From Escherichia phage SP22: a DNA stretch of 64,000 bases. Location: sequence record LC519489.1. One strand, written 5' to 3'. Both the position numbers and the translations under genes were made by a program. Below are positions 1 to 9,166 of this stretch, one piece after another; positions within the stretch are counted from its first letter, which is position 1, and every line of letters begins with the position of its first letter. The notes beneath the pieces are model-generated. The model saw only the letters and a program-made list of their open reading frames with translations. It ran no database searches and was not told the DNA's origin.

Positions 1-93
1 CTCCTTTGTAGAACAAGGCAGACCTACAGCTTTAAGTAAGATGGTACAGTAATCCATACAACAAGTCAAGAACTATTGCAAGTTAAAAAAGTT

Positions 94-118
94 GTTGACA
101 AAGTACTTGACAAGGTGT
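94..118 (+). promoter_or_regulatory. Conserved 25-nt element GTTGACAAaGTACTTGACAAGGTGT (two tandem TTGACAA half-sites); candidate early promoter/operator
   Basis: Near-identical copy (24/25) at 42283-42307 at the head of the other plus-strand early block; -10 hexamers downstream are weak and not conserved. Confidence 0.4.
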
Positions 119-154
119 AGGCTTATAAATACTTAGAAGATAACTTAAAAGGTT

Positions 155-225
155 CCTCTAAAAAGGCTATTTAAACAGATATCTTTCTGGATATCTATCT
201 TTTATCTTAAAAGCCTTTTAAGAGG
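155..225. repeat. Nested inverted repeats upstream of first ORF (outer 13-bp arms 155-167/213-225, inner AGATATC/GATATCT 177-183/190-196)
   Basis: Arms reverse-complementary by eye (outer 12/13, inner 7/7). Confidence 0.45.
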
Positions 226-244
226 TCTTATAAGAGGCATACCA

Positions 245-616
245 ATGAAAAACAGAACAAACAAAGGCCAGTTTAAAAAAGGCCAGTCTGGAAACCCATC
301 TGGAAGACCAAAAGGCTCTCGTAACAAAAGCTCACTTGTAAAAGCTCAACTGACCATTGATAATTCTGCTGAGTTTGCTGCAAAACTGTTTGAGGCGATT
401 GTTACAAGGGACGCTGCTAAGCTTGCAGAGTTCGGGTTAAACACTGACGACGTAACCATCAAGAGCATGATTGAGGTCGGTAAAACTATCATGACTCACT
501 CAGCAGGTGAGATGAAAGCAATTGCAGCAGACACTAAGAAAACCCCTGATAACGGCGGTCAACCTCAGACAGATAACAAACCAACGTTCTCTGCTGTAGC
601 GACTCTCAAAAAATAA
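245..616 (+). CDS. DUF5681-like hypothetical protein
   Basis: N-terminal KGQSGNPSGRPKG motif recalled as DUF5681 signature; ORF track. Confidence 0.45.
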   Translation: MKNRTNKGQFKKGQSGNPSGRPKGSRNKSSLVKAQLTIDNSAEFAAKLFEAIVTRDAAKLAEFGLNTDDVTIKSMIEVGKTIMTHSAGEMKAIAADTKKTPDNGGQPQTDNKPTFSAVATLKK

Positions 617-696
617 TTTTAAAAGGTGTTGACAGACTCTACAAAGTTGTTCTAAAGTCTGTCACATCAAACAACAATGAGAGAAGAGAGTAAAAT

Positions 697-2112
697 ATGA
701 GCAAGTTATTTAAACATGCGCACCTTCATGCAGGTCGAACTGAAAATGGTGCTGTAAACCATACTTCATCAATGTCTGCTCTGGTAGACTTCTACAAAGC
801 CGCTGGCTCAAGCCGTAGCAATGTAGAAATCTTACCAGACCTGTTCTACAAAGCTTTGCGTGAGGATGTTGATGTTGCAGTTCGTATTTTGCTTCACATG
901 CGAGATGTACGAGAAGGTATGGGTGAGCGTAAAGCCTTCAGAACTGTTTTACTTCAAGCAATCGAAGATAAAGTTTTAGAGCCTACACAGGTTCTTCGTA
1001 TTATGGATAAGATTGCAGAACTTGGTCGTTTTGATGACTTCAAAATCTTCGTAGGTACTCGTTTTGAGACAGATGCCTTCAAACATTTAGAAGCAGCATT
1101 ACTAGACCCTGAAACAGCAGGTTTAGCAGCCAAGTGGTTACCACGAGTAAAACCACGACACAAACAGTTTGTAAAACGTTTCTGCAAGTTTGCTAACTTA
1201 AGTGAGAAAGAGTACCGCACACTGTTGTCTGCACTTTCTGATACGGTTGAGCAAAAAATCTCTGCTAATGAGTTCGGTAAGATTGACTACAGCAAGATTC
1301 CTTCACTCGCTGCTGCACGTTACCAAAAACTCTTTAACCGTAAAGATGGAGAACGCTACAAAGCTTACATTGAGTCCTTATCAAAAGGTGAGACTAAGAT
1401 TAACGCTGGTGCTGTTTACCCATACGATGTGATTAAATCTATCAAGTATGGTAATGCAGATGTTGCTAATGAGCAGTGGAAAGCACTACCAAACTGGATG
1501 GCAGAGGGTGAAAACATCTTGTGTATGACTGATGTCTCAAGCTCGATGTCTTGGGTAAATCTTGGTTCAATCACTGCTCTTGATATTGGTGTATCTCTTG
1601 CCTTGTATGTAGCAGAACGCAACACAGGATGCTTTAAGGACGAGTTAATGGTCTATTCAACAAACCCTCATTTCATTGAACTGAGTGGTGATTTGAAAAA
1701 CCGTCATCGTCAGGTGATGCGTCATGTTGAATATGGCTCAACTAACTTACAAGCAGCTTTTGACCGTATTCTTGAGACAGGTAAGAGAAACAACTTGACT
1801 CAGAAAGATATGCCAAGTAAGCTTATCATCTTCTCTGATATGGAGTTCAATCAGGTTGATGGTGCAAATGGTCGTACAAACTTTGAAGAAATTCGCAGTA
1901 AGTACAAAAAAGCTGGATATGAGATGCCACAACTGGTATTCTGGTACTTAGCAAACCGTAATGGTACTTGCGAAGTGTCTGTTAAGGATAACGGTGTAGC
2001 AATGGTATCAGGGTTCTCTCCAGCCACTTTAAAAGCTCTGCTTGGTGGTGAGAAGTTTGACCCAATCAGCGTAATGCTCAAAGCAGTAATGATTGACCGT
2101 TACATCTGGTAA
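697..2112 (+). CDS. vWA-domain protein with alpha-helical N-terminal region (DUF2828/TROVE-like)
   Basis: MIDAS-type DVSSSMS motif and LIIFSDMEF strand in C-terminal half; RDVREGMGER motif N-terminal; 471 aa. Confidence 0.5.
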   Translation: MSKLFKHAHLHAGRTENGAVNHTSSMSALVDFYKAAGSSRSNVEILPDLFYKALREDVDVAVRILLHMRDVREGMGERKAFRTVLLQAIEDKVLEPTQVLRIMDKIAELGRFDDFKIFVGTRFETDAFKHLEAALLDPETAGLAAKWLPRVKPRHKQFVKRFCKFANLSEKEYRTLLSALSDTVEQKISANEFGKIDYSKIPSLAAARYQKLFNRKDGERYKAYIESLSKGETKINAGAVYPYDVIKSIKYGNADVANEQWKALPNWMAEGENILCMTDVSSSMSWVNLGSITALDIGVSLALYVAERNTGCFKDELMVYSTNPHFIELSGDLKNRHRQVMRHVEYGSTNLQAAFDRILETGKRNNLTQKDMPSKLIIFSDMEFNQVDGANGRTNFEEIRSKYKKAGYEMPQLVFWYLANRNGTCEVSVKDNGVAMVSGFSPATLKALLGGEKFDPISVMLKAVMIDRYIW

Positions 2113-2130
2113 AAAGTTTTAAAAAGGGTA

Positions 2131-2159
2131 TTGACAATGTGTTTAATACCCTTTAATAT
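2131..2159 (+). promoter_or_regulatory. Sigma70-like promoter TTGACA-N17-TAATAT heading the tRNA array, embedded in hairpin AGGGTATT/AATACCCT (2124-2151)
   Basis: Hexamers and 17-nt spacing read directly; flanking 8-bp inverted repeat. Confidence 0.4.
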
Positions 2160-2382
2160 GTTCTACATAGAAACGAAATGAGAGCTTTTCTAAGATACTG
2201 AAAAATATTTTAAAAAAGTTCTTGACAACTACTAAAAAATAATGTTAAAGTGGTTACATAGAGTTTGAAAATGACAGTACTGACCGGAACATCGAAAGAT
2301 GGGTACTGCGCCGGGGTTTTACACCCTCCCAGCCTGAGAGCGGGATAACCAAAGGAAAGACCGAATTTATTAAAAAGTTTAT

Positions 2383-2459
2383 CTCTGTTTAGCTCAGCTT
2401 GGTAGAGCGTTCCGTTTGGGGCGGTAAGGCCGGAGGTTCAAGTCCTCCAACAGAGACCA
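2383..2459 (+). tRNA. tRNA-Pro(TGG)
   Basis: Acceptor ctctgtt/aacagag, D-arm AGCTCAGCTTGGTAGAGC, anticodon loop TTTGGGG, T-loop TTCAAGT, CCA encoded. Confidence 0.7.
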
Positions 2460-2466
2460 AATTAAT

Positions 2467-2544
2467 GTTCCAGTAGACAAAATGGTAAAGTCACCACTCT
2501 TTCAAAGTGGATATTTGAGGGTTCAAATCCCTTCTGGAACGCCA
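2467..2544 (+). tRNA. tRNA-Glu(TTC)
   Basis: Acceptor gttccag/ctggaac, anticodon stem ccact/agtgg, loop CTTTCAA, T-loop TTCAAAT, CCA encoded. Confidence 0.7.
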
Positions 2545-2635
2545 GTTTTGACAGAAGACCAATTACAGCAAACTTAATCTTATTCATCTGAAGGTAAATC
2601 GGACAAAGAAGAGATTTGGTTTGGTCATTAAGAAT

Positions 2636-2712
2636 TGCGGGTATAGAGAAAGGGCGTCTCACATGTCTCATTAGCATGGTATCGGCAGGTTCGACTCCTG
2701 CACCCGCCTCCA
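2636..2712 (+). tRNA. tRNA-Met(CAT) type, with U1-C72 mismatch or extra nucleotide before the D-stem
   Basis: Anticodon stem catgt/gcatg, loop CTCATTA, D-stem gaga/tctc, T-arm gcagg-TTCGACT-cctgc, CCA encoded; acceptor register ambiguous. Confidence 0.6.
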
Positions 2713-2789
2713 ATTTTGCAGAAGACCGTATTCAGCAACAAAATACTTTTTGCGGATAAAAGAAAAAACACGGTCTGGCAATGTATTAA

Positions 2790-2866
2790 GGTTAGGAAGC
2801 ACATAAGGTATGTGCGGTCGCCTGTTAAGCGAATGGCACAGGGTTCGAATCCCTGACTAACCGCCA
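2790..2866 (+). tRNA. tRNA-Asn(GTT)
   Basis: Acceptor ggttagg/actaacc, anticodon loop CTGTTAA, T-arm caggg-TTCGAAT-ccctg, CCA encoded. Confidence 0.7.
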
Positions 2867-2935
2867 AATTTAGGAGAGAAGCGATTGCTCACCGATTTGT
2901 AAGGTGCAAGTCCTTAGCCTGAATAGAAATTAAAT

Positions 2936-3023
2936 GTGTCGTTATCCCGTAGATGGTAGCGGTGGGGACTGTAAATCCCTTGTCATTGAGACTCGGTAGG
3001 TTCGACTCCTACACGGCACACCA
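2936..3023 (+). tRNA. tRNA-Tyr(GTA), type II (long variable arm)
   Basis: Acceptor gtgtcgt/acggcac, anticodon stem gggga/tccct, loop CTGTAAA, about 15-nt variable arm, T-loop TTCGACT, CCA encoded. Confidence 0.65.
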
Positions 3024-3029
3024 AATAAA

Positions 3030-3106
3030 GGTTATGTAGTTTAACTGGTTAAAATACTCCCCTGTCACGGGAGATGATGAGGGTTCAAATCCCTTCGTAA
3101 CCGCCA
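3030..3106 (+). tRNA. tRNA-Asp(GTC)
   Basis: Acceptor ggttatg/cgtaacc, D-stem gttt/aaat, anticodon stem ctccc/gggag, loop CTGTCAC, T-loop TTCAAAT, CCA encoded. Confidence 0.75.
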
Positions 3107-3318
3107 AATTATAATAAGTATTTCAAAATGATGTTTTGAGAGGGCTATTTAGCCCCTCCCTTAAAGAGTTCTTACGAGTATTCTTTAAAGGAGCAGAAGA
3201 CCAAATTCAGCAAGTACGTATGAAATTTTCAAGCCAATTTAATTTTGAAAAAATTTAAAACTTGGTCTGGCTCAACAAATTTACAGAAGACCGTTTACAG
3301 CAAACTTTAAACAATCTA

Positions 3319-3392
3319 TTTCTCCGGTAAAGAAAAGGCGAAGGTTCGATTCCTTCACTCGGCAGATGTCGAGTTGGTGTAATGGTAGCACT
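3319..3392 (+). tRNA. Circularly permuted tRNA-Thr(GGT)-like locus: 3' portion (anticodon arm, T-arm, acceptor 3' strand; 3319-3364) lies upstream of 5' portion (acceptor 5' strand, D-arm; 3368-3392)
   Basis: Anticodon arm tttct-CCGGTAA-agaaa, T-arm gaagg-TTCGATT-ccttc, 3' strand actcggc, linker, 5' strand gtcgagt (7/7 pairs incl. one G-U), D-arm gtgt-AATGGTA-gcac; no partner halves in the conventional order nearby. Confidence 0.35.
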
Positions 3393-3564
3393 TAAGATGA
3401 TAAACAACGGTCTGGTAATTATCTTTGTAGATAAGTTATTAAGCTTACCTGTGAGTATGCGACCACAAAGGGTGAAATGGTAAATTCTAGATTTAAACCC
3501 AACAATGCACATCGCTACAGACCTTAAGCAAGTCTGGGTAGCTTATCTACAAAGATAATTTAAT

Positions 3565-3640
3565 GGAAGTGTAGCAGAATGGTGATGCGGCAGACTTTTA
3601 ATCTGACAGGCGATGGGTTCGAATCCCTCCACTTCTACCA
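3565..3640 (+). tRNA. tRNA-Lys(TTT)
   Basis: Acceptor ggaagtg/cacttct, anticodon loop CTTTTAA, T-loop TTCGAAT, CCA encoded; T-stem has a bulge (gatggg/ccctc), shared with the Lys(CTT) paralogue. Confidence 0.65.
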
Positions 3641-3644
3641 ATAT

Positions 3645-3721
3645 GGTTCAGTCGCAGATAAGGTAATGCAGGGGTTTCATAAGCCCTATGAATGTGGGTT
3701 CGATTCCCATCTGAACCTCCA
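3645..3721 (+). tRNA. tRNA-Met(CAT) type (elongator Met or Ile2 not distinguishable)
   Basis: Acceptor ggttcag/ctgaacc, anticodon stem ggggt/gccct, loop TTCATAA, T-arm gtggg-TTCGATT-cccat, CCA encoded. Confidence 0.7.
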
Positions 3722-3722
3722 A

Positions 3723-3798
3723 GCTGGTATAGTTAAGAAGGTTATAACACTCCCCTGATAAGGGAACATCGGTGGTTCGATTCCACCTACCAGTACCA
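3723..3798 (+). tRNA. tRNA-Ile(GAT)
   Basis: Acceptor gctggta/taccagt, D-stem gtta/taac, anticodon loop CTGATAA, T-arm ggtgg-TTCGATT-ccacc, CCA encoded. Confidence 0.75.
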
Positions 3799-3813
3799 AT
3801 TTCAATAAAGTTG

Positions 3814-3842
3814 TTGACATTGAGATGTGACTACTTTATAGT
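3814..3842 (+). promoter_or_regulatory. Sigma70-like promoter TTGACA-N17-TATAGT inside the tRNA array
   Basis: Hexamers and spacing read directly; followed by about 290 nt with no tRNA or ORF. Confidence 0.5.
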
Positions 3843-4136
3843 AACTGAAAATGATTCAGCATATGTATAATTCAAACACCAATACATGAGCGTTAGACGT
3901 AACACAATGTGGGGAAATTTGTTGTACATATTCTGAATAGTTTTCGTTGCGTAGCGTCTATTTTGCAAATTTAAAATAAATGCAAACGACAATGTTTTTC
4001 TGGCAGTAGCTTGATAGGCTAAACACCAGTGAGGTCTTCCAATCCCTCATCAAAGAATTTGGCGTACTCGCCCACGGTATGATTAATAAGGTGGGCATCT
4101 TTAAGGGCTTTCTAAGAGAGTCTTTAAAGATAATTA

Positions 4137-4218
4137 CGGGGCGTATCTCAGCGGTCTTCTAAACCGCCGTTAACCGAGTAAGTGGAGTATGCGGGTTCGA
4201 GTCCTGCCGCCTCGACCA
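4137..4218 (+). tRNA. Atypical tRNA-like gene, anticodon TCT (Arg), no recognisable D-arm and a 23-nt extra region; possible pseudo-tRNA
   Basis: Acceptor cggggcg/cgcctcg, perfect hairpin gcggt-CTTCTAA-accgc, T-arm gcggg-TTCGAGT-cctgc, CCA encoded; only 7 nt between acceptor and anticodon stem. Confidence 0.35.
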
Positions 4219-4232
4219 ATTTTGGAGAAATC

Positions 4233-4580
4233 ATGAAAACTTGTATTAGGTGCAAACTTAGCAAGGATGAAAATGATTTCTACATGAAAGATGGTAAGAG
4301 AACTCATTCATACTGTAAAAAGTGTGTTAATGAGCAAACCATAGAAAGACAAAGAGCACTTAAACTTTCAGCTATTGAGTACAAAGGTGGGGTTTGTCAT
4401 GATTGTGGTAAAAGGTATCATCCAGCAGTGTATGACTTCCATCATTTGAATCCTTCAGAGAAAGATTTTAACATTGGTCATAGAAAAAGTCTGAAGTTCT
4501 CTCAAGAACTAAAAGATGAACTTGACAAATGTGTTTTGCTATGTTCAAATTGCCATAGGGTAAGACATGCAAAGTATTAG
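4233..4580 (+). CDS. HNH homing endonuclease
   Basis: HNH motifs (YDFHHLNPSEKDFNIGH ... LLCSNCHRVRH); start placed at ATG after GGAG; upstream extension in the ORF track overlaps the tRNA-like gene. Confidence 0.7.
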   Translation: MKTCIRCKLSKDENDFYMKDGKRTHSYCKKCVNEQTIERQRALKLSAIEYKGGVCHDCGKRYHPAVYDFHHLNPSEKDFNIGHRKSLKFSQELKDELDKCVLLCSNCHRVRHAKY

Positions 4581-4717
4581 TTAGCAGATTGCTTAGACGA
4601 CCTTATCGGGTCTCCGTGTAAGGAGGTGGTCTGTATCTCATGTTTTCCAGAACATGTAAATAATCTGAGAAGGGGCTTTACAGTGTTGCGAAAATACGGT
4701 AAGCTTCGAATTACAAT

Positions 4718-4800
4718 ATGGGACGATGTTAAGACTCTAAGGCATGAGCAACGGCCTCCAAAACCGTTTCAAAGGGGTTCAACTCCTCCGTCCCATGCCA
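4718..4800 (+). tRNA. tRNA-Trp(CCA)-like with a 7-nt insertion between acceptor and D-arm
   Basis: Acceptor atgggac/gtcccat (7/7), D-arm ctc-TAAGGCAT-gag, anticodon loop CTCCAAA, T-loop TTCAACT, CCA encoded; would complete the 20-amino-acid set. Confidence 0.45.
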
Positions 4801-4813
4801 AAGTCTTATTAGG

Positions 4814-4901
4814 GGTAGGTAGCGGCTAATGGCAGCCAAACAGTCTTGAAAACTGTTGCCACTGTAGAGATACGGTGAGGGTTCGACTCCTTTACTTACC
4901 G
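4814..4901 (+). tRNA. tRNA-Ser(TGA), type II
   Basis: Acceptor ggtaggt/acttacc, D-arm ggc-TAATGGCA-gcc, anticodon stem acagt/actgt, loop CTTGAAA, long variable arm, T-loop TTCGACT; CCA not encoded. Confidence 0.65.
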
Positions 4902-5057
4902 CCTAATAAGATTTATACCGTCCATGCTTGCTCGCATTTTCGGTTTATCCTCGTGTATTGGTTGTACACACTGATAAAGCACCTAGTAGGTGTCACGGAG
5001 AAGAGATAATATCAAGCTCTCCAAAGGTTCTAGTCACCGGATTAAACAAGACTATGC

Positions 5058-5079
5058 AAAGACCAAATTAGGTCTTTTT
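5058..5079 (+). terminator. Weak rho-independent terminator-like hairpin (AAAGACC/GGTCTTT + T-run)
   Basis: Inverted repeat and T-tract read directly; AT-rich stem. Confidence 0.3.
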
Positions 5080-5171
5080 AGAGGGCTTCTAAGGTTATTA
5101 CAGCTTGTTGTGGAACCTTGTTGCTTAGGTTCTTAGAAGTTCTCTAAAAAGATTTAATGGGAGATTGACAC

Positions 5172-5624
5172 ATGGCACGTAGCAGTTTGACTAAAGATAT
5201 TCTTGAACCTTTAGTAAAGGATTCAGTATCATTCAGAGAAGTACTTATTAAGCTTGGGAGAAAACCAGCAGGTGGTTCTCAGTCACATCTAAAGCGTGTT
5301 ATAGAGAAGTTTGAAATAGACACTTCTCATTTCCTCGGACAAAAGGCTGGTAAGGTTAAAACTGTACCAAAAAGAAAGCCTGAAGAAATACTAATTCTGC
5401 GTGAATCTGGTGAAAGAGCTAGGTCTTCACAACTAAGAAGAGCTTTAATAGCCTCTGGTGTCGAATACAAATGCTCTAAATGTGGTCAGTTACCGTATTG
5501 GTTGGGTAACCCTCTAACTCTTGATGTTGACCACATTAACGAGAACTGGTTAGATGATAGAAAAGAGAATCTTCGGTTCTTGTGTCCAAATTGCCACAGT
5601 CAATTCTCAAGACATTTGATTTAA
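5172..5624 (+). CDS. HNH homing endonuclease
   Basis: HNH motif LDVDHINENWLDDRKENLRFLCPNCH; GGGAG RBS upstream. Confidence 0.7.
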   Translation: MARSSLTKDILEPLVKDSVSFREVLIKLGRKPAGGSQSHLKRVIEKFEIDTSHFLGQKAGKVKTVPKRKPEEILILRESGERARSSQLRRALIASGVEYKCSKCGQLPYWLGNPLTLDVDHINENWLDDRKENLRFLCPNCHSQFSRHLI

Positions 5625-5625
5625 T

Positions 5626-5702
5626 GCACCTATAGCCCAACTGGTAGAGGCAGCAGACTTAGAATCTGCTCAGTGTGAGTTCGAATCTCTCTAGGTGTAC
5701 CA
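5626..5702 (+). tRNA. tRNA-Leu(TAG) by anticodon, type I length (short variable arm)
   Basis: Acceptor gcaccta/taggtgt, anticodon stem gcaga/tctgc, loop CTTAGAA, 5-nt variable region, T-loop TTCGAAT, CCA encoded. Confidence 0.6.
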
Positions 5703-5709
5703 AATTAAT

Positions 5710-5785
5710 GCAGGTGTAGCAAAATGGTTATGCGGCTGACTCTTAATCAGTAAGACGATGGGTTCAATTCCCTCCACCTGTACCA
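5710..5785 (+). tRNA. tRNA-Lys(CTT)
   Basis: Acceptor gcaggtg/cacctgt, anticodon stem ctga/tcag, loop CTCTTAA, T-loop TTCAATT, CCA encoded. Confidence 0.65.
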
Positions 5786-5791
5786 AACATT

Positions 5792-5867
5792 GGGGATGTA
5801 GTTTACATGGTTAAAACATAAGTTTTGCAAACTTAAGTACAGGGTTCAATTCCCTGCTTCTCCACCA
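5792..5867 (+). tRNA. tRNA-Ala(TGC)
   Basis: G3-U70 wobble pair present (Ala identity element), D-stem gttt/aaac, anticodon stem taagt/actta, loop TTTGCAA, T-arm caggg-TTCAATT-ccctg, CCA encoded. Confidence 0.75.
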
Positions 5868-5873
5868 ATTAGT

Positions 5874-5948
5874 GCATCCATAGTTTAAACGGGAAAATTA
5901 CAGTCTTCCAAACTGAGGTTGAGGGTTCGATTCCCTCTGGATGCTCCA
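5874..5948 (+). tRNA. tRNA-Gly(TCC)
   Basis: Acceptor gcatcca/tggatgc, anticodon loop CTTCCAA, T-arm gaggg-TTCGATT-ccctc, CCA encoded. Confidence 0.75.
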
Positions 5949-5962
5949 AATTAAGGTGTGAT

Positions 5963-6376
5963 ATGAAAATATGTAGTACTTGCAGAATACCAAAAGATGA
6001 AAGCTTATTCCATAAGAATAAGAACAAGAAAGATGGTCTTCAAAGTCAATGCAAAGACTGTGCAAGACTTCGTGATGCAAAGAGTTATCAAGCAAATGAT
6101 AAAAGGAAAGAGGCTATCAAAAGCACTCGTAACTTCAAGAGGGAGTATAATAAAACTCTAGCTAGAAGGTACAAAGCTTTATGCAAATGTCATATATGTG
6201 GTGAGAAAGAACCAGCTGCACTGGATTTACACCATACAGACCCTTCCCAGAAAGATTTGAATCCTGCATCACTTTATTCATACTCCACAAAAAGATTAAA
6301 AGATGAAATCAGAAAGTGTATCGTCTTGTGTGCTAACTGTCACAGAAAAGTACACGCTGGTATCATACAAGTTTAA
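5963..6376 (+). CDS. HNH homing endonuclease
   Basis: HNH motifs LDLHHTDPSQKDLNPA ... VLCANCHRKVH; Cys-rich N-terminus. Confidence 0.7.
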   Translation: MKICSTCRIPKDESLFHKNKNKKDGLQSQCKDCARLRDAKSYQANDKRKEAIKSTRNFKREYNKTLARRYKALCKCHICGEKEPAALDLHHTDPSQKDLNPASLYSYSTKRLKDEIRKCIVLCANCHRKVHAGIIQV

Positions 6377-6377
6377 T

Positions 6378-6454
6378 GCTGCTTTCGTATAATTGGCTAT
6401 TACACATCCCTTGTAAGGATGGAAATGCAGGTTCGAGTCCTGTGAGCAGCACCA
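6378..6454 (+). tRNA. tRNA-Thr(TGT)
   Basis: Acceptor gctgctt/gagcagc, anticodon stem catcc/ggatg, loop CTTGTAA, T-arm gcagg-TTCGAGT-cctgt, CCA encoded. Confidence 0.75.
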
Positions 6455-6550
6455 ATTTAGAGGTCAAGTGAAAGACCGCTTTGAGTCAACTGAAGACCGT
6501 AACAAATCCCACGGAGTTGAGTTAGCGGCACAACTTCAGACCTCTTTCAT

Positions 6551-6625
6551 ACTCGCTTAGTTTATATGGTAAAACATCACCCTTACAAGATGAAGAAAAA
6601 GGTTCAAGTCCTTTAGTGAGTACCA
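6551..6625 (+). tRNA. tRNA-Val(TAC)
   Basis: Acceptor actcgct/agtgagt, D-arm gttt-ATATGGTA-aaac, anticodon loop CTTACAA, T-arm aaagg-TTCAAGT-ccttt, CCA encoded. Confidence 0.7.
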
Positions 6626-6626
6626 T

Positions 6627-6704
6627 GTTCCAGTATCCCAATTGGCAGAGGATGCAAGCTCAAACCTTGTACTAGTGACGGTTCGAATCCGTCTTGGAAC
6701 ACCA
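6627..6704 (+). tRNA. tRNA-Leu(CAA) by anticodon, short variable arm
   Basis: Acceptor gttccag/ttggaac, anticodon stem gcaag/cttgt, loop CTCAAAC, 6-nt variable region, T-arm gacgg-TTCGAAT-ccgtc, CCA encoded. Confidence 0.6.
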
Positions 6705-6709
6705 ATTTT

Positions 6710-6785
6710 GCAGGATTAGTTCAAATGGATAGAGCAACAGTCTACGAAGCTGTTAATAGGGGTTCGAATCCCTTATCCTGCGCCA
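6710..6785 (+). tRNA. tRNA-Arg(ACG)
   Basis: Acceptor gcaggat/atcctgc, D-arm gttc-AAATGGATA-gagc, anticodon loop CTACGAA, T-loop TTCGAAT, CCA encoded. Confidence 0.75.
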
Positions 6786-6804
6786 ATTTAAAGAGGCTAT
6801 TTAG

Positions 6805-7362
6805 ATGAGATATTTGAAGTATGCTTCATGGATTTTCTTAGCTTTGTTAGAACCATTTGCAGCAATCTTAGCAGTTATCTTAGCACCTTTCGTAGTCCCA
6901 TTCTACAGTGAGAAGAAAGGACACTTACCTTTCGGCTTCAGATGGATGGAGACATATGACAACCCAATTGATGGTGATAAAGGGCATGTCGAACGATGGG
7001 CTAAGATTAGAAAGATTGGCAAGCTTGGTGTCTATATGCAGAGAGTCGGTTGGCTCTGGAGAAACAAAGCTTATAACTTCTCTTACCATGTGTTAGGAAG
7101 AGATGTAAAAGATGTTACTAAGTGGAAAGGCAATATCAACGTAAGTTCTAACCCTGAAGATAATCAGACAGGTTATCTCCTAATGTGGAACAGCAATGCT
7201 TGGGGATTATTCGCTTTTATCCCATCAATTAAAGTCTTTGGTAAACAATTTTACTGGAGAATTTATATTGGGTGGAAGCTAAAAAGTGTTGTCCCAGAAG
7301 AAAGAGCATTCTCAAGGGAAAGAGTTATGTTGGCATTCTTTATTCATCCACTAAGAAAGTAA
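6805..7362 (+). CDS. Hypothetical membrane protein (N-terminal hydrophobic segment, Trp-rich)
   Basis: ORF track; AGAGG RBS upstream; no motif recognised. Confidence 0.5.
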   Translation: MRYLKYASWIFLALLEPFAAILAVILAPFVVPFYSEKKGHLPFGFRWMETYDNPIDGDKGHVERWAKIRKIGKLGVYMQRVGWLWRNKAYNFSYHVLGRDVKDVTKWKGNINVSSNPEDNQTGYLLMWNSNAWGLFAFIPSIKVFGKQFYWRIYIGWKLKSVVPEERAFSRERVMLAFFIHPLRK

Positions 7363-7370
7363 AGATTTAA

Positions 7371-7446
7371 AGGGGATTAGTTTACAAGGTTAAAACCTCG
7401 GTCTTTGAAATCGAAGAAGTTGGTTCAATTCCAACATCCCCCGCCA
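7371..7446 (+). tRNA. tRNA-Gln(TTG)
   Basis: Acceptor aggggat/atccccc with unpaired A1-C72 (weak 1-72 pair is typical of tRNA-Gln), anticodon loop CTTTGAA, T-arm gttgg-TTCAATT-ccaac, CCA encoded. Confidence 0.7.
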
Positions 7447-7448
7447 AT

Positions 7449-7527
7449 GCTCCATTACTCCAATTGGCAGAGAGGCCAGACTTAAAATCTGTGTTATGTA
7501 TCGGTTCGAATCCGATATGGAGTACCA
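7449..7527 (+). tRNA. tRNA-Leu(TAA) by anticodon, short variable arm
   Basis: Acceptor gctccat/atggagt, anticodon stem caga/tctg, loop CTTAAAA, about 8-nt variable region, T-arm atcgg-TTCGAAT-ccgat, CCA encoded. Confidence 0.6.
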
Positions 7528-7532
7528 AATTT

Positions 7533-7608
7533 AGCGGTATAGCATAACTGGCAATGCAGCAGTCTCTGAAGCTGTCTTATTAAGGTTCAAATCCTTATGC
7601 CGCTGCCA
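7533..7608 (+). tRNA. tRNA-Gln(CTG)
   Basis: Acceptor agcggta/tgccgct (A1-U72), anticodon loop CTCTGAA, T-arm taagg-TTCAAAT-cctta, CCA encoded. Confidence 0.7.
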
Positions 7609-7639
7609 CTTCTAAGGGTTCTTACGAGAGTCCTTAAAT

Positions 7640-7715
7640 GTGGCCTTATCATAAATGGTAATGACCCATGCTGTGAACATGGTCTATACGGGTTCAAATC
7701 CCGTAGGTCACCCCA
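7640..7715 (+). tRNA. tRNA-His(GTG)
   Basis: Acceptor gtggcct/aggtcac, D-arm tcat-AAATGGTA-atga, anticodon stem ccatg/catgg, loop CTGTGAA, T-arm acggg-TTCAAAT-cccgt, CCA encoded; no G at -1. Confidence 0.75.
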
Positions 7716-7720
7716 ATTTA

Positions 7721-7797
7721 TAGTCCAAGTAGCTTATATGGTTAAAGCGCGTGTCTGAAAAACATGAGAAGAGGGTTCAAATCCCACTGGACTACCA
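7721..7797 (+). tRNA. tRNA-Phe(GAA)
   Basis: Acceptor tagtcca/tggacta, D-arm gctt-ATATGGTTA-aagc, anticodon stem cgtgt/acatg, loop CTGAAAA, T-loop TTCAAAT; two extra nt at the acceptor/D junction. Confidence 0.65.
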
Positions 7798-7813
7798 ATT
7801 TCAAAGGTGCTTA

Positions 7814-8548
7814 ATGAAAGAGATGACAGAACAAGGTAAGGAGATTTTTAATCTCTTAAAAACCGGTAAAGGGTTTTCTAATCCCCTTATTACTGGTGCA
7901 GCAGTTCTCGGTGGAACCGTAGCTGCCTCTACATCACTTGTAAGCTCTATTAGCTCTGTAACAGACCCTACAATAAAAGATAAGCTTGTTGCTGCTGGAC
8001 TTACAACAGTCCTGCTTAACAGCTTTACAACGAGTCTGACAAGCACTACATCAACTACCAAAACACTGACAGATTACGGTCAAAAATCTATTGATGAGTT
8101 TTCATCACGTATGCAGGTAGCAAAAGGCTATTCTAATGTTATGGGTGCAGCAGGAGAGCAGGTTGGTTGTACACCATTTAGTGGTATTATGGGTGTTGCT
8201 ACAGAGTATGGTCAAAAAGCTATTGACACGATTAACAGTGCACTAGATGGTGTTAATGATGTATTAAGTGACTTACAAGATGCTATTGACAAAGGTCTTG
8301 ATACTATTTCTGATTTAGCTAACCAAGCTGTTAGTAAGATTAATGAAGGTATTTCGAAGATTACAGCTTATGCAGATGAAGTTGTGCAGATGATTGAAGA
8401 AGAAGCTGCTCTTATTGCAGAGTACCTTAAAACGAATATCAATGGGTTCTTAGCAGGTATCTTACCAGACTGGTTTGATGATGCTTGTAAAACTGGTGTA
8501 ATTGATACTATTGCAACACCAGAAATGAAGAACGCATTACAGAAATAA
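7814..8548 (+). CDS. Hypothetical protein (Ser/Thr-rich N-terminal region)
   Basis: ORF track entry 7751-8548 overlaps tRNA-Phe; start moved to ATG after AAGGTG. Confidence 0.5.
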   Translation: MKEMTEQGKEIFNLLKTGKGFSNPLITGAAVLGGTVAASTSLVSSISSVTDPTIKDKLVAAGLTTVLLNSFTTSLTSTTSTTKTLTDYGQKSIDEFSSRMQVAKGYSNVMGAAGEQVGCTPFSGIMGVATEYGQKAIDTINSALDGVNDVLSDLQDAIDKGLDTISDLANQAVSKINEGISKITAYADEVVQMIEEEAALIAEYLKTNINGFLAGILPDWFDDACKTGVIDTIATPEMKNALQK

Positions 8549-8549
8549 T

Positions 8550-8642
8550 GGAAGATTAACCCTAAAAGGTAAGGGAGCAGTTTGCTAAACTGCCAGTAGC
8601 TGAGAAATCGGTGTACCAGTTCAAGTCTGGTATCTTCCTCCA
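8550..8642 (+). tRNA. tRNA-Ser(GCT), type II
   Basis: Acceptor ggaagat/atcttcc, D-stem ccc/ggg, anticodon stem gcagt/actgc, loop TTGCTAA, long variable arm, T-arm accag-TTCAAGT-ctggt, CCA encoded. Confidence 0.7.
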
Positions 8643-8646
8643 ATTT

Positions 8647-8722
8647 GAATCCGTGACAGAAATGGTTATGTGCCTGTCTGCAAAACAGGTTTATAAGGGT
8701 TCGAGTCCCTTCGGATTCTCCA
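8647..8722 (+). tRNA. tRNA-Cys(GCA)
   Basis: Acceptor gaatccg/cggattc, anticodon stem cctgt/acagg, loop CTGCAAA, T-arm aaggg-TTCGAGT-ccctt, CCA encoded. Confidence 0.75.
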
Positions 8723-8884
8723 AGTTATTTTACTCTCTCTCAATTAAAATAATAATAATGCCCTGCTATAAGTATTCTTCCTTTCGCTACCGAAGAGTAT
8801 TTTTAGACAGGGCTTTTTTACAGAGTTATACTTTATAAGAAGACTTATACAGTATGTCTCTGACGTACATTGTGGTTTCTCCTT

Positions 8885-8908
8885 GACGGTCTCTGTACCG
8901 TCTTTTTT
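8885..8908 (+). terminator. Rho-independent terminator (GACGGT-ctctgt-ACCGTC + T6) closing the tRNA array
   Basis: Perfect 6-bp stem and T-run read directly; a second GC hairpin + T-run at about 8760-8819. Confidence 0.6.
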
Positions 8909-8944
8909 AAGGGGAAACATGGTTAACTATTTGGAGAAAACATA

Positions 8945-9145
8945 ATGAGCGAGACCGTTTATAAAGAACTTTACGAAGCTAACAAGAAGCTAGAATTTAT
9001 GCAGAACACTATCATGGCAATTGCAGACAGATTATCTGTAGCAACAGGTATTGATATTCAAGAAGCGTCTATGGATGCACTTCTTGATGCTGTTGATGCA
9101 AAGTTCGAAGTTAAGAAAGAAGAGACTGCTACAGACTCTGAATAA
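8945..9145 (+). CDS. Small hypothetical protein preceding terminase
   Basis: ORF track; position only. Confidence 0.4.
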   Translation: MSETVYKELYEANKKLEFMQNTIMAIADRLSVATGIDIQEASMDALLDAVDAKFEVKKEETATDSE

Positions 9146-9166
9146 TTCTATTTGCGGAGGTGCTTA

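What the first reader, a model, noticed from the sequence alone, without database searches (positions are those of the whole stretch)
2552..3305. Recurrent CAGAAGACC-N3-TT-N-CAGCAA motif between tRNA genes
Four copies at 2552-2573, 2719-2740, 3194-3214 and 3284-3305 (plus a degenerate copy at 6486-6505). Copies 1 and 2 begin a few nt after a tRNA 3' CCA, each preceded by TTTTG. The spacing is irregular and the flanks differ, so this is not a CRISPR array; it may be a processing signal, a promoter for a non-sigma70 polymerase, or a protein-binding site. A second short motif ACGGTCTGG(Y)AAT occurs at about 2769-2782 and 3407-3420.
Basis: seen in the sequence. Interest (0 to 1): 0.5.

Follow-up and report, generated by a model that had tools for sequence, protein, structure and literature searches.

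The report
Phage Y-RNA-like genes beside Ro60 homolog
The repeated motif is one strand of a conserved RNA stem that closes four small non-coding RNA genes lying among the tRNA genes of a FelixO1-like phage, just downstream of a gene for a Ro60-like RNA-binding protein, so they are most likely that protein's "Y RNA" partners.

Summary
CAGAAGACC-N5-CAGCAA occurs exactly four times (2552, 2719, 3194, 3284, + strand) and nowhere else in 64 kb. The gap is 5 nt, not N3-TT-N.

Each pair closes one RNA unit: outer 4-bp helix, AGA/G internal loop, 7-8-bp inner helix, then single-stranded UWCAGCAA. The units are U1 2549-2627, U2 2716-2781, U3 3191-3273 and U4 3281-3418. All 242 alignment cells pair, with compensatory and G.U changes.

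U4 encloses a T arm, a closed acceptor-like hairpin and a D arm in permuted order. This is the layout of the bacterial Y RNA YrlA.

The gene 430 nt upstream (697-2112) has a Ro60 fold (TROVE ring plus vWA domain). A covariance model finds the same module beside homologous genes in 38 of 78 distant phage loci, always on the gene's strand.

Best reading: four tRNA-cluster-embedded Y-RNA-like RNAs whose stems bind the phage Ro60 homolog. Binding and expression were not tested here. The promoter reading is not supported. The copy at 6486 is not a member.

The parts
697..2112 (+). Gene for a Ro60-like RNA-binding protein (471 aa; FelixO1 ORF42, equivalent to Bas63 gp130)
   Evidence: Pfam gives DUF2828 + DUF7788 and no TROVE hit. 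PHROG 850 is named 'RNA-binding protein'. The AF2 model has pLDDT 87.6. The top 9 Foldseek PDB hits are all full-length Ro60/TROVE proteins. The MIDAS residues D279/S281/S283/T349/D381 are invariant in 40 homologs. It is 31-35% identical to mycobacteriophage 'Ro-like RNA binding protein'.
2222..2251 (+). Sigma70-like promoter (TTGACA-18-TAAAGT, with TG) that probably drives the tRNA / Y-like RNA array
   Evidence: Consensus scan gives 10/12 matches. The next strong + strand promoter is at 3814-3842, and no + strand terminator-like site lies between them. This is a consensus match only.
2549..2627 (+). Unit U1: short Y-like RNA (YrlB-like), UGAC[AGA]AGACCAA-UUACAGCAA...UUGGUUU[G]GUCA. It lies between tRNA-Glu and tRNA-Met.
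   Evidence: Descriptor scan. CM R1 scores 80.4 bits, E 8e-15. Motif copy 1 is at 2552-2571 and its 3' partner at 2615-2627.
2716..2781 (+). Unit U2: short Y-like RNA, UUGC[AGA]AGACCGU-AUUCAGCAA...ACGGUCU[G]GCAA. It lies between tRNA-Met and tRNA-Asn.
   Evidence: The MFE fold shows this stem. R1 scores 70.5 bits. The outer stem UUGC/GCAA is replaced by UUAC/GUAA in FelixO1 and others, a compensatory change. Motif copy 2 is at 2719-2738 and its 3' partner at 2769-2781.
3191..3273 (+). Unit U3: short Y-like RNA, GAGC[AGA]AGACCAA-AUUCAGCAA...UUGGUCU[G]GCUC
   Evidence: MFE fold. R1 scores 81.2 bits. G.U variants GGGC/GCUC and GAGC/GUUC occur in relatives. Motif copy 3 is at 3194-3213 and its 3' partner at 3261-3273.
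3281..3418 (+). Unit U4: YrlA-like RNA, UUAC[AGA]AGACCGUU-UACAGCAA ... AACGGUCU[G]GUAA. It encloses a permuted tRNA-like domain.
   Evidence: R1 found it at 53 bits although it was not in the training set. RNAalifold predicts the closing stems plus T arm, acceptor-like hairpin and D arm, with 10 of 28 pairs compensatory. Rfam's tRNA model gives a weak hit at 3300-3364, 24.7 bits. A de-permuted chimera is called a tRNA by ARAGORN. Motif copy 4 is at 3284-3303 and its 3' partner at 3406-3418.
3340..3356 (+). U4 T arm: GAAGG-UUCGAUU-CCUUC
   Evidence: Read directly from the sequence. Conserved in all relatives.
3357..3374 (+). U4 acceptor-like stem closed by a loop (ACUCGGC-AGAU-GUCGAGU); it has no free CCA end
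   Evidence: Three unrelated sequences keep the pairing: CUCGGCA/UGUCGAG, CCCUUC/GAAGGG and ACACG/CGUGU.
3377..3391 (+). U4 D arm: GUGU-AAUGGUA-GCAC
   Evidence: The D-loop AAUGGUA is identical to that of S. Typhimurium YrlA, whose sequence is given in bioRxiv 10.1101/312249. Conserved in relatives.
3419..3564 (+). Possibly related: a long hairpin RNA (about 22-bp closing stem) whose tip reads CAGACC-UUAAGCAA-GUCUGG, a miniature of the motif
   Evidence: RNAfold gives -41.9 kcal/mol, z = -4.75. The CMs do not detect it, so its membership is unproven.

Best explanation
The window comes from a FelixO1-like phage (Felixounavirus). The four motif copies are the 5' strands of the closing stems of four small non-coding RNA genes (U1-U4, 66-138 nt). 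These genes are interleaved with tRNA genes and start 430 nt downstream of a gene for a divergent Ro60 homolog.

Each RNA pairs its 5' and 3' ends into the same structure: an outer 4-bp helix, an asymmetric internal loop (5' AGA / 3' G), a 7-8-bp inner helix (AGACCNN/NNGGUCU), and then a single-stranded UWCAGCAA. U4 additionally carries a permuted tRNA-like domain (variable hairpin, T arm, closed acceptor-like hairpin, D arm), as in the bacterial Y RNA YrlA. U1-U3 are short and resemble YrlB.

Inferred mechanism:
- The array is transcribed from the sigma70-like promoter at 2222-2251 as one precursor together with the tRNAs.
- RNase P and the tRNA 3'-end machinery release the tRNAs, and thereby the Y-like RNAs. 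The terminal stems of the Y-like RNAs stop exonucleolytic trimming.
- The bulged stem plus CAGCAA is the binding site for the phage Ro60-like protein.
- The variable or tRNA-like upper parts tether or gate the protein towards other factors or RNAs, as Y RNAs do with PNPase. They may also act as tRNA mimics during the phage's conflict with host defences.

Shown here: the repeats, the RNA secondary structure, the tRNA-like domain, the Ro60 fold of the neighbouring protein, and the genomic linkage of module and gene across distant phages.

Inferred only: expression, processing, protein binding and biological role.
For: 1. Four exact copies and none elsewhere. CM R1 and CM R2 each find exactly these four units in 64 kb, at 53-81 bits and 63-68 bits. 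The next best hit scores 19.6 bits.

2. Structure. Units 2-4 fold into the same bulged stem. In 22 sequences of U1-U3 from Felixounavirus, Mooglevirus and Suspvirus, 242/242 cells pair and 5 of 11 pairs show changes on both sides. Five cells are G.U. Slid controls pair at only 21-46%.

3. U4 has the YrlA layout. RNAalifold recovers the T arm, acceptor-like hairpin and D arm, with 10 of 28 pairs compensatory. The order of elements and the D-loop AAUGGUA match S. Typhimurium YrlA nt 15-93. ARAGORN accepts a de-permuted chimera as a tRNA but rejects the native and the scrambled sequence.

4. Protein. Foldseek's top 9 PDB hits are all Ro60/TROVE over the full length: phiLo phage Ro60 9kop/9l5y, Xenopus 2i91/1yvr, human 9nfa, D. 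radiodurans 2nvo (E 1e-9 to 2e-6, TM 0.5-0.64). The MIDAS motif is invariant. The protein is homologous to SEA-PHAGES 'Ro-like RNA binding protein'.

5. Linkage. The iterated model R2 gives 63 hits at E<=1 in 78 distant loci that encode a homolog. All 63 are on the gene's strand. 45 lie within 500 nt of the gene, a zone that is 11% of the sequence searched. 38 of the 78 loci have such a hit. CAGCAA is invariant in 63/63. The inner helix is 98.8% paired and all 7 pairs show compensatory changes. The module is present in Klebsiella phage FBKp34, including a YrlA-like copy, and in Listeria phage WIL-1.

6. Literature. Y RNAs are encoded within 4 kb of Ro60 orthologs on the same strand, including in phages (PMC4201824). 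A phage Ro60 binds phage Yrl RNAs (PMC12135203). Bas63 gp130, the Felixounavirus ortholog, is Ro60-like and counters the ppl defence; its authors only guessed that some annotated tRNAs might be Y RNAs (10.1101/2024.10.10.617714). In Listeria phage CKA15, very abundant unannotated RNAs lie upstream of the homolog (PMC12282133).
Against: - There are no expression, end-mapping or binding data for these RNAs.
- Rfam 15 gives no Y_RNA or other ncRNA family hit on the units at E<=10.
- The published bacterial Y RNA motif GNCGAAN0-1G is not matched exactly. The window has RCAGAAG, and the wider family has AAAGR.
- The protein hits Pfam DUF2828/DUF7788 rather than TROVE. It has no sequence-level PDB hit as a single sequence and only E=0.25 to Ro60 as a profile.
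- Single-sequence fold z-scores are modest, -1.0 to -1.9.
- The broad alignment A5 was fitted to the model, so its pair counts lean towards the structure. CM E-values come from a short calibration.
- 40 of the 78 distant loci showed no hit near the gene.
Confidence: 0.72

Rival explanations
1. The stems are structural spacers or processing elements of the polycistronic tRNA precursor. For example, they could act as barriers or guides for RNase E, RNase P or 3' exonucleases. In this reading they have no dedicated protein partner and no function as free RNAs.
For: U1 and U2 start 3-4 nt after a tRNA 3' end and stop 8 nt before the next tRNA. The array has no internal promoter or terminator.
Against: The same module sits next to the Ro-like gene in at least 20 distant loci that have no tRNA gene in the fetched +/-4 kb, for example L012, L014, L020, L042, L058, L063, L068, L069 and L072. 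The invariant CAGCAA and the AGA/G loop are not needed for a simple barrier. U4 carries an elaborate, covarying tRNA-like domain.
Confidence: 0.1
2. The module is a cis-regulatory RNA operator through which the Ro-like protein, or another factor, autoregulates expression. It would be a UTR element rather than a stand-alone Y-like RNA.
For: In many distant loci the single module lies 15-70 nt after the stop codon or 4-50 nt before the start codon of the Ro-like gene. This is where UTR elements occur. Some copies are followed by an intrinsic terminator.
Against: In the window there are four copies, 430-1300 nt downstream, beyond a separate promoter and between tRNAs. One copy carries a tRNA-like domain. 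Salmonella yrlA/yrlB are likewise co-transcribed with rsr yet act as free RNAs (PMC4201824).
Confidence: 0.08
3. The motif is a DNA-level signal: a phage-specific promoter, iterons of a replication origin, or a target or recombination site for the HNH homing endonucleases of the tRNA region.
For: Four 20-bp repeats within 750 bp resemble iterons. HNH endonuclease genes are annotated in this region in relatives.
Against: The motif covaries with a partner 50-125 nt away. Five G.U cells would be C.A mismatches on the other strand. Strand bias is 63 to 0 relative to the Ro-like gene in distant phages. No copy precedes any gene elsewhere in 64 kb. HNH insertions in relatives are not at the motif.
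Confidence: 0.03
4. The units are decaying tRNA pseudogenes or duplicated tRNA fragments without function.
For: U4 contains good T and D arms and a weak Rfam tRNA hit. The region has at least one aberrant tRNA-like gene at 4135-4218.
Against: The units are conserved with compensatory changes across three genera and, as a module, across phages of Proteobacteria, Firmicutes and Actinobacteria. The permuted order, with a closed acceptor hairpin that covaries, is a design and not decay. U1-U3 have no tRNA-like parts.
Confidence: 0.04

Closest known systems
Bacterial Y RNAs YrlA/YrlB with Rsr (the Ro60 ortholog), e.g. the Salmonella Typhimurium rsr-yrlBA-rtcBA locus (Chen et al. 2014, PMC4201824; YrlA structure, bioRxiv 10.1101/312249)
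   Same: - The RNAs are encoded within 4 kb of, and on the same strand as, a Ro60-fold protein.
- The 5' and 3' ends pair into a bulged stem with a purine-rich 5' strand (GNCGAAG versus RCAGAAG here), followed by YUAY (UUAC here).
- One RNA carries a permuted tRNA-like domain in the same order: T arm, closed acceptor stem, D arm. The D-loop AAUGGUA is identical.
- Shorter partners lack that domain.
   Different: - The GNCGAAN0-1G motif is not matched exactly.
- The most conserved element here is a single-stranded CAGCAA after the helix plus a 3' CUG. The sources I read do not mention these for YrlA.
- There are four copies, embedded in a tRNA gene array.
- The protein belongs to the DUF2828/DUF7788 branch, not Pfam TROVE.
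- There is no Rfam hit.
Thermus phage phiLo Ro60 with Yrl1/Yrl2 (PMC12135203; PDB 9KOP, 9L5Y)
   Same: A phage-encoded Ro60-fold protein with phage-encoded stem-bulge-stem RNAs next to its gene. It is the best structural match of the window's protein. Binding and a PNPase ternary complex were shown experimentally for that system.
   Different: The phiLo Yrls lie upstream of the gene, carry a CGAA motif in the bulge, and are not described as tRNA-embedded. Structure-based sequence identity to the window protein is only about 14-16%.
Bas63 (Felixounavirus) gp130, the Ro60-like counter of the ppl defence (PhageMaP preprint 10.1101/2024.10.10.617714)
   Same: By position and description it is the ortholog of the window's 697-2112 gene: a Felixounavirus gene directly upstream of the tRNA genes with a Ro60-like fold. 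The authors noted the adjacency to tRNAs.
   Different: They proposed that some annotated tRNA genes might be the Y RNAs. Here the candidates are the unannotated spacers between the tRNAs, and the tRNAs themselves look canonical.
Metazoan Y RNAs (Rfam RF00019)
   Same: Terminal stem formed by the 5' and 3' ends, with a conserved bulged helix as the Ro60 binding site. Modular upper part.
   Different: No detectable sequence or CM similarity. The metazoan genes are Pol III genes with a 3' oligo-U. They have no tRNA-like domain.

Membership tests
Y RNA / YrlA-type bacterial Y RNA | Encoded near (within about 4 kb) a Ro60 ortholog and on the same strand | tested here: met
   The units start 437-1169 nt after the stop of the Ro60-fold gene 697-2112, on the same strand. 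In distant loci, 63/63 hits are on the same strand and 45/63 lie within 500 nt.
Y RNA / YrlA-type bacterial Y RNA | 5' and 3' ends base-pair into a stem containing a bulged or looped helix (the Ro60-binding module) | tested here: met
   Outer 4 bp, AGA/G loop, inner 7-8 bp. 100% of 242 cells pair, and 5 pairs are compensatory. In the broad set the inner helix is 98.8% paired.
Y RNA / YrlA-type bacterial Y RNA | Conserved 5'-strand motif GNCGAAN0-1G (bacteria) or GGUCCGA (metazoa) | tested here: not met
   The window has (A/G)CAGAAG, i.e. A in place of the C. The wider family consensus is AAAG(G/A). This is a resemblance only.
Y RNA / YrlA-type bacterial Y RNA | tRNA-like effector domain (T arm, closed acceptor stem, D arm), with YUAY after the stem (YrlA subclass) | tested here: met
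   Met for U4 only. UUAC follows the inner helix. U1-U3 lack the domain, as YrlB does.
Y RNA / YrlA-type bacterial Y RNA | Bound by the Ro60 protein in vivo or in vitro | not testable with these tools
   Needs RIP/CLIP or EMSA.
Y RNA / YrlA-type bacterial Y RNA | Match to the curated Rfam Y_RNA covariance model | tested here: not met
   No Y_RNA hit at E<=10 in 2200-3570 or at E<=1 in 1-10000.
Ro60 / TROVE protein family (for ORF 697-2112) | HEAT-repeat ring followed by a vWA domain (overall Ro60 fold) | tested here: met
   AF2 model with pLDDT 87.6. The top 9 Foldseek PDB hits are all Ro60/TROVE, with 517-559 aligned columns.
Ro60 / TROVE protein family (for ORF 697-2112) | MIDAS motif (DxSxS...T...D) in the vWA domain | tested here: met
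   D279, S281, S283, T349 and D381 are invariant in 40 homologs. The profile aligns this stretch to Ro60 residues 365-440.
Ro60 / TROVE protein family (for ORF 697-2112) | Significant match to Pfam TROVE (PF05731) | tested here: not met
   Only DUF2828 (PF11443) and DUF7788 (PF25043) are hit at E<=0.01.
CRISPR array | Regularly spaced direct repeats with unique spacers of similar length | tested here: not met
   Spacings are 167, 475 and 90 nt, with tRNA genes between the copies.

The most novel reading that the evidence does not exclude
The window's motif is the local form of a widespread RNA family that I found in neither Rfam 15 nor the paper library I searched. Its form is AG-helix-UWCAGCAA...helix-CUG. 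It would be the cognate ligand of the DUF2828-type Ro60 homologs found in phages of Proteobacteria, Firmicutes and Actinobacteria.

In Felixounavirus, four such RNAs would be produced by the tRNA-processing machinery, and one of them is a tRNA mimic. Together with the Ro-like protein they would form an RNP that the phage uses against host defences (ppl, or tRNA- or RNA-targeting systems), for example as a tRNA decoy or an RNA quality-control or repair platform.

In a Klebsiella phage the same module even sits as an extra arm inside an otherwise normal-looking tRNA-Asp. This suggests direct recruitment of the protein to a tRNA.
Probability: 0.35. Interest if true: 0.8.

Novelty: new variant of a known kind. 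Interest (0 to 1): 0.6.

Why it matters
Ro60 and Y RNAs are known from animals, bacteria and a few phages, but their roles in bacteria and phages are still poorly understood. Here a common, easily grown group of phages (FelixO1/Bas63-like) has four concrete, testable Y-RNA candidates next to a Ro60 homolog, and that homolog already has a published anti-defence phenotype.

The authors of that work guessed that annotated tRNAs were the partners. The evidence here points to the unannotated spacers instead, and it defines the likely recognition element: the bulged stem plus CAGCAA.

The same module tracks the DUF2828-type Ro homolog in about half of 78 distant phage loci. It could therefore seed a new RNA family model and improve phage annotation, since these regions are now annotated as tiny 'hypothetical proteins'.

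The tRNA-embedded arrangement also suggests a route of biogenesis: release by the tRNA processing enzymes.

Tried and rejected
This was fixed by using N5.
- Rfam scans at permissive thresholds give no Y_RNA or other meaningful family on the units. The weak hits (Dicty_Class_I at 2724-2777, NRON, sraL) are far below gathering scores.
- phmmer of the protein against PDB found nothing. The profile search gave only E=0.25 to Ro60. Structure prediction was needed.
- NCBIfam gave no hit.
- An exact-pattern scan of IMG/VR with AGAAGACC-N5-CAGCAA returned mostly single chance matches, plus a few Felixounavirus contigs with four copies. It was not informative.
- A regex GAAG-N4-9-CAGCA on distant loci was noisy because of coding-strand bias. 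It did point to the first distant examples.
- The supplement of Chen et al. 2014, which lists their 22 phages, is not held. I therefore could not check whether any DUF2828-type phage was in their set.
- The degenerate copy at 6486 was rejected as a member.
- The minus-strand ORF 3255-3512, annotated as a CDS in phage mio, was rejected as coding. U4 differs by a 1-nt indel between the window and FelixO1, mio and L005, and by larger indels in Mooglevirus.
- CRISPR, ToxI-like and iteron readings were rejected because of the irregular spacing, the distal covariation and the strand specificity.
Full report
**Context.** The window is from a FelixO1-like phage: 2200-4300 matches Felixounavirus genomes at 93-99% identity. 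The finding lies in the tRNA gene cluster, which has 25 tRNAs on the + strand.

**The observation.** With a 5-nt gap, CAGAAGACC-N5-CAGCAA matches exactly at 2552, 2719, 3194 and 3284, all on the + strand. No other match with fewer than 3 mismatches exists in 64 kb.

The 9-mer alone occurs four more times elsewhere without the CAGCAA part. The second motif, ACGGTCTGGYAAT, is exact at 2770 and 3407. The site at 6490 (CTGAAGACC) is only a 9-mer near-match.

**What the two motifs are.** GGTCT is complementary to AGACC. Downstream of every copy of motif 1 there is a motif-2-like sequence that pairs with it:
- U1 2549-2627: UGAC[AGA]AGACCAA...UUGGUUU[G]GUCA
- U2 2716-2781: UUGC[AGA]AGACCGU...ACGGUCU[G]GCAA
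- U3 3191-3273: GAGC[AGA]AGACCAA...UUGGUCU[G]GCUC
- U4 3281-3418: UUAC[AGA]AGACCGUU...AACGGUCU[G]GUAA

RNAfold predicts this closing stem for U2, U3 and U4 on its own. The outer helix and the extension of the inner helix differ between the four copies yet always pair.

The four units are conserved in Felixounavirus, Mooglevirus and Suspvirus genomes. An alignment of 22 distinct U1-U3 sequences shows the following:
- 242/242 cells are paired.
- 5 of 11 pairs have changes on both sides, for example U2 UUGC/GCAA versus UUAC/GUAA.
- Five cells are G.U, which is compatible only with + strand RNA.
- Controls with the partner slid by 1-3 columns pair at only 21-46%.

A covariance model built from these 22 sequences (R1) finds exactly four hits in the 64-kb window. 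These include U4 at 53 bits, which was not used for training.

**U4 is a tRNA mimic with permuted order.** Between its closing strands, U4 holds these elements in order:
- a small hairpin;
- a T arm (GAAGG-UUCGAUU-CCUUC, 3340-3356);
- a 7-bp acceptor-like stem closed by a 4-nt loop (3357-3374);
- UG;
- a D arm (GUGU-AAUGGUA-GCAC, 3377-3391).

The acceptor-like stem has three unrelated sequences in relatives that all pair. RNAalifold recovers all these helices, with 10 of 28 pairs compensatory. Rfam's tRNA model gives a sub-threshold hit on the 3' half, 24.7 bits.

I opened the acceptor hairpin, kept U4's own acceptor strands, D arm and T arm, and supplied a borrowed anticodon arm. ARAGORN calls this chimera a cloverleaf tRNA. 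It calls neither native U4 nor a scrambled control. This is an engineered test of arm geometry only.

The layout is helix, UAC, variable region, T arm, closed acceptor stem, U(A/G), D arm, helix. This is the layout of S. Typhimurium YrlA nt 15-93, whose sequence is printed in bioRxiv 10.1101/312249, and the D-loop AAUGGUA is identical.

**The neighbouring gene.** ORF 697-2112 (471 aa; FelixO1 ORF42, annotated 'RNA-binding protein' or 'vWFA protein') hits Pfam DUF2828 + DUF7788 and PHROG 850 'RNA-binding protein'.

Sequence searches against PDB fail or are marginal. The marginal profile hit is to the Ro60 vWA domain at the equivalent position, E 0.25.

An AlphaFold2 model built from a 40-sequence alignment has pLDDT 87.6. 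Its nine best Foldseek PDB matches are all full-length Ro60/TROVE proteins: Thermus phage phiLo, Xenopus, human and D. radiodurans (E 8.5e-9 to 1.7e-6). Next come isolated vWA domains. The MIDAS residues are invariant.

tblastn shows 31-35% identity over the full length to mycobacteriophage proteins annotated 'Ro-like RNA binding protein'. It also finds homologs in Vibrio, Klebsiella, Aeromonas, Campylobacter, Listeria, Staphylococcus, Enterococcus and Bacillus phages.

**Linkage beyond this genus.** I fetched 80 IMG/VR loci encoding homologs. In about 25 of the 75 distant ones, a tRNA cluster follows the gene on the same strand.

Klebsiella phage FBKp34 (Stephanstirmvirinae; protein 52% identical) has three modules in the gap between its homolog and the tRNAs. 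Its gene ends at 5440 in L207 and the modules are at 5523-5600, 5612-5677 and 5678-5820. They are read from the sequence and detected by R2. They read ...GAAGAU-UUACAGCAA......AGAAGAA-AUACAGCAA... and ...AGAAGCU-UUACAGCAA.... The third encloses a T arm, a closed acceptor hairpin and a canonical D arm.

R1 gave weak hits in distant loci, 28 of 30 on the gene's strand. It also hit two sites just upstream of the homolog in Listeria phage WIL-1.

I iterated the model (A4 to R2) and searched 78 distant loci. This gave 63 hits at E<=1, all on the gene's strand. 45 of them lie within 500 nt of the gene, a zone that is 11% of the sequence searched. 38 of the 78 loci have such a hit. Fourteen of the 63 hits had been in the training alignment; the other 49 are new.

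The consensus is AAAG-R-N4-WUW-CAGCAA ... N4-Y-CUG, and CAGCAA is invariant in 63/63. The inner helix is 98.8% paired and all seven pairs show compensatory changes, against 34-47% in slid controls. That alignment is model-fitted, which inflates pairing somewhat.

At least 20 of the loci with a module next to the gene have no tRNA gene in the fetched region. The module therefore tracks the Ro-like gene, not tRNAs. In the window, R2 again finds only the four units (63-68 bits; next best 19.6 bits).

**Transcription context.** Sigma70-like promoters occur at 629-658 (before the Ro-like gene), at 2222-2251 and at 3814-3842. No + strand terminator-like site lies between 2251 and 3814. U1-U4 are therefore probably co-transcribed with tRNA-Pro through tRNA-Ile and released when the tRNAs are processed. 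U1 and U2 begin 3-4 nt after a tRNA 3' end and stop 8 nt before the next tRNA. This step is inferred.

**Comparison with what is known.**
- Chen et al. 2014 (PMC4201824) defined bacterial Y RNAs (YrlA/YrlB). They are encoded within 4 kb of Ro60 orthologs on the same strand, have a 5' motif GNCGAAN0-1G, and in YrlA carry a tRNA-like domain. The authors found them in 22 phages whose proteins were annotated as TROVE.
- The phiLo study (PMC12135203) showed that a phage Ro60 binds phage Yrl RNAs and, with them, host PNPase.
- The PhageMaP preprint reported that Bas63 gp130, directly upstream of the tRNA genes in that Felixounavirus and so the ortholog by position, is Ro60-like and counters the ppl defence. 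It speculated that some annotated tRNAs might be Y RNAs.
- The CKA15 Listeria phage study saw very abundant unannotated RNAs near the tRNA genes upstream of the homolog, and found the protein in virions.
- None of the papers in the searched library locates Y RNAs in FelixO1-like phages.

The present RNAs meet the positional and structural criteria for Y RNAs, and U4 meets those for YrlA. They do not match the published sequence motif exactly (RCAGAAG versus GNCGAAG). They are not found by Rfam, and their protein belongs to a Pfam family other than TROVE. I therefore file them as a new variant of the Ro60/Y RNA kind, not as proven members.

**Rivals.**
- A pure tRNA-processing role is contradicted by the tRNA-free loci.
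- A UTR-operator role fits some distant loci but not four copies among tRNAs, one of which has a tRNA-like domain.
- DNA-level roles (promoter, iteron, homing site) are contradicted by distal covariation, the G.U pairs and the 63:0 strand bias.
- Pseudogene decay is contradicted by conservation with compensation.

**Limits.** Nothing here shows expression, RNA ends or binding. CM E-values rest on a short calibration. Half of the distant loci gave no hit near the gene.

Noticed in passing
window 3419-3564 (+): Directly after U4 lies a 146-nt element with an about 22-bp closing stem (UUAUCUUUGUAGAUAAG.../...CUUAUCUACAAAGAUAA). It folds at -41.9 kcal/mol, z = -4.75. Its tip reads CAGACC-UUAAGCAA-GUCUGG, which resembles a miniature of the motif. 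Phage mio annotates a minus-strand CDS here. The CMs do not detect it.
   Followed up: partly
window 4135-4218 (+): This is a non-canonical tRNA-like gene with an Arg(UCU) anticodon arm (GCGGU-CUUCUAA-ACCGC), a good T arm and a good acceptor stem. It has no D arm and about 18 extra nt in the variable region. ARAGORN misses it, and Rfam gives only tmRNA-end hits. Relatives have a normal tRNA-Arg(UCU) at this position. An HNH-type ORF starts just after it.
   Followed up: partly
window 4148-4161 versus the motif; L083 4105-4181: The 5' part of the tRNA-Arg(UCU) anticodon arm (ACGGUCUUCU in Mordin, GCGGUCUUCU in the window) is the reverse complement of AGAAGACCGU (or AGAAGACCGC) in the motif's 5' strand. 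It shares ACGGUCU with the 3' strand of U2 and U4. This may be chance (about 0.1 expected per window), because the helix sequence is not conserved in other phages.
   Followed up: no
It is not a member of the family according to either CM.
   Followed up: partly
window 3847-4135 (+): After the promoter at 3814-3842 there is a structured, unannotated stretch. 3847-3945 forms a long hairpin (the 3800-3945 fold has z = -3.3). Rfam gives weak sub-threshold hits to permuted tmRNA and tmRNA (16-22 bits against a gathering score of 47).
   Followed up: no
L207 6003-6116 (Klebsiella phage vB_KpM_FBKp34): This 114-nt 'tRNA-Asp(GTC)' carries a roughly 37-nt insertion between the D arm and the anticodon arm. 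The insertion reads AACUUCU-UAG-AGAAGUU-UUACAGCA. That is the Ro-module helix plus the conserved ACAGCA, here as a closed hairpin inside an otherwise normal-order tRNA. The arrangement is the circular permutation of the YrlA-like RNA found 200 nt upstream.
   Followed up: partly
window 2258-2382 (+): This 125-nt leader lies between the promoter at 2222-2251 and tRNA-Pro. It ends in GGAAAGACCGAAU, has only a weak sraL hit (28.5 bits against 39), and its fold is unremarkable (z = -0.5).
   Followed up: no
L209 (Listeria phage WIL-1) 3120-3388 and 6308-7519: In this Herelleviridae phage, three modules lie just upstream of the Ro-like gene, in a stretch annotated as many tiny 'hypothetical proteins' on both strands. 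An RtcB-type 'tRNA splicing ligase' lies 1.3 kb downstream. This echoes the Salmonella rsr-yrlBA-rtcBA arrangement.
   Followed up: partly
window 3107-3190 (+): The 84-nt spacer between tRNA-Asp and U3 folds into three small hairpins (z = -3.2). One of them is a GC-rich hairpin, GGGCU-AUUU-AGCCC.
   Followed up: no
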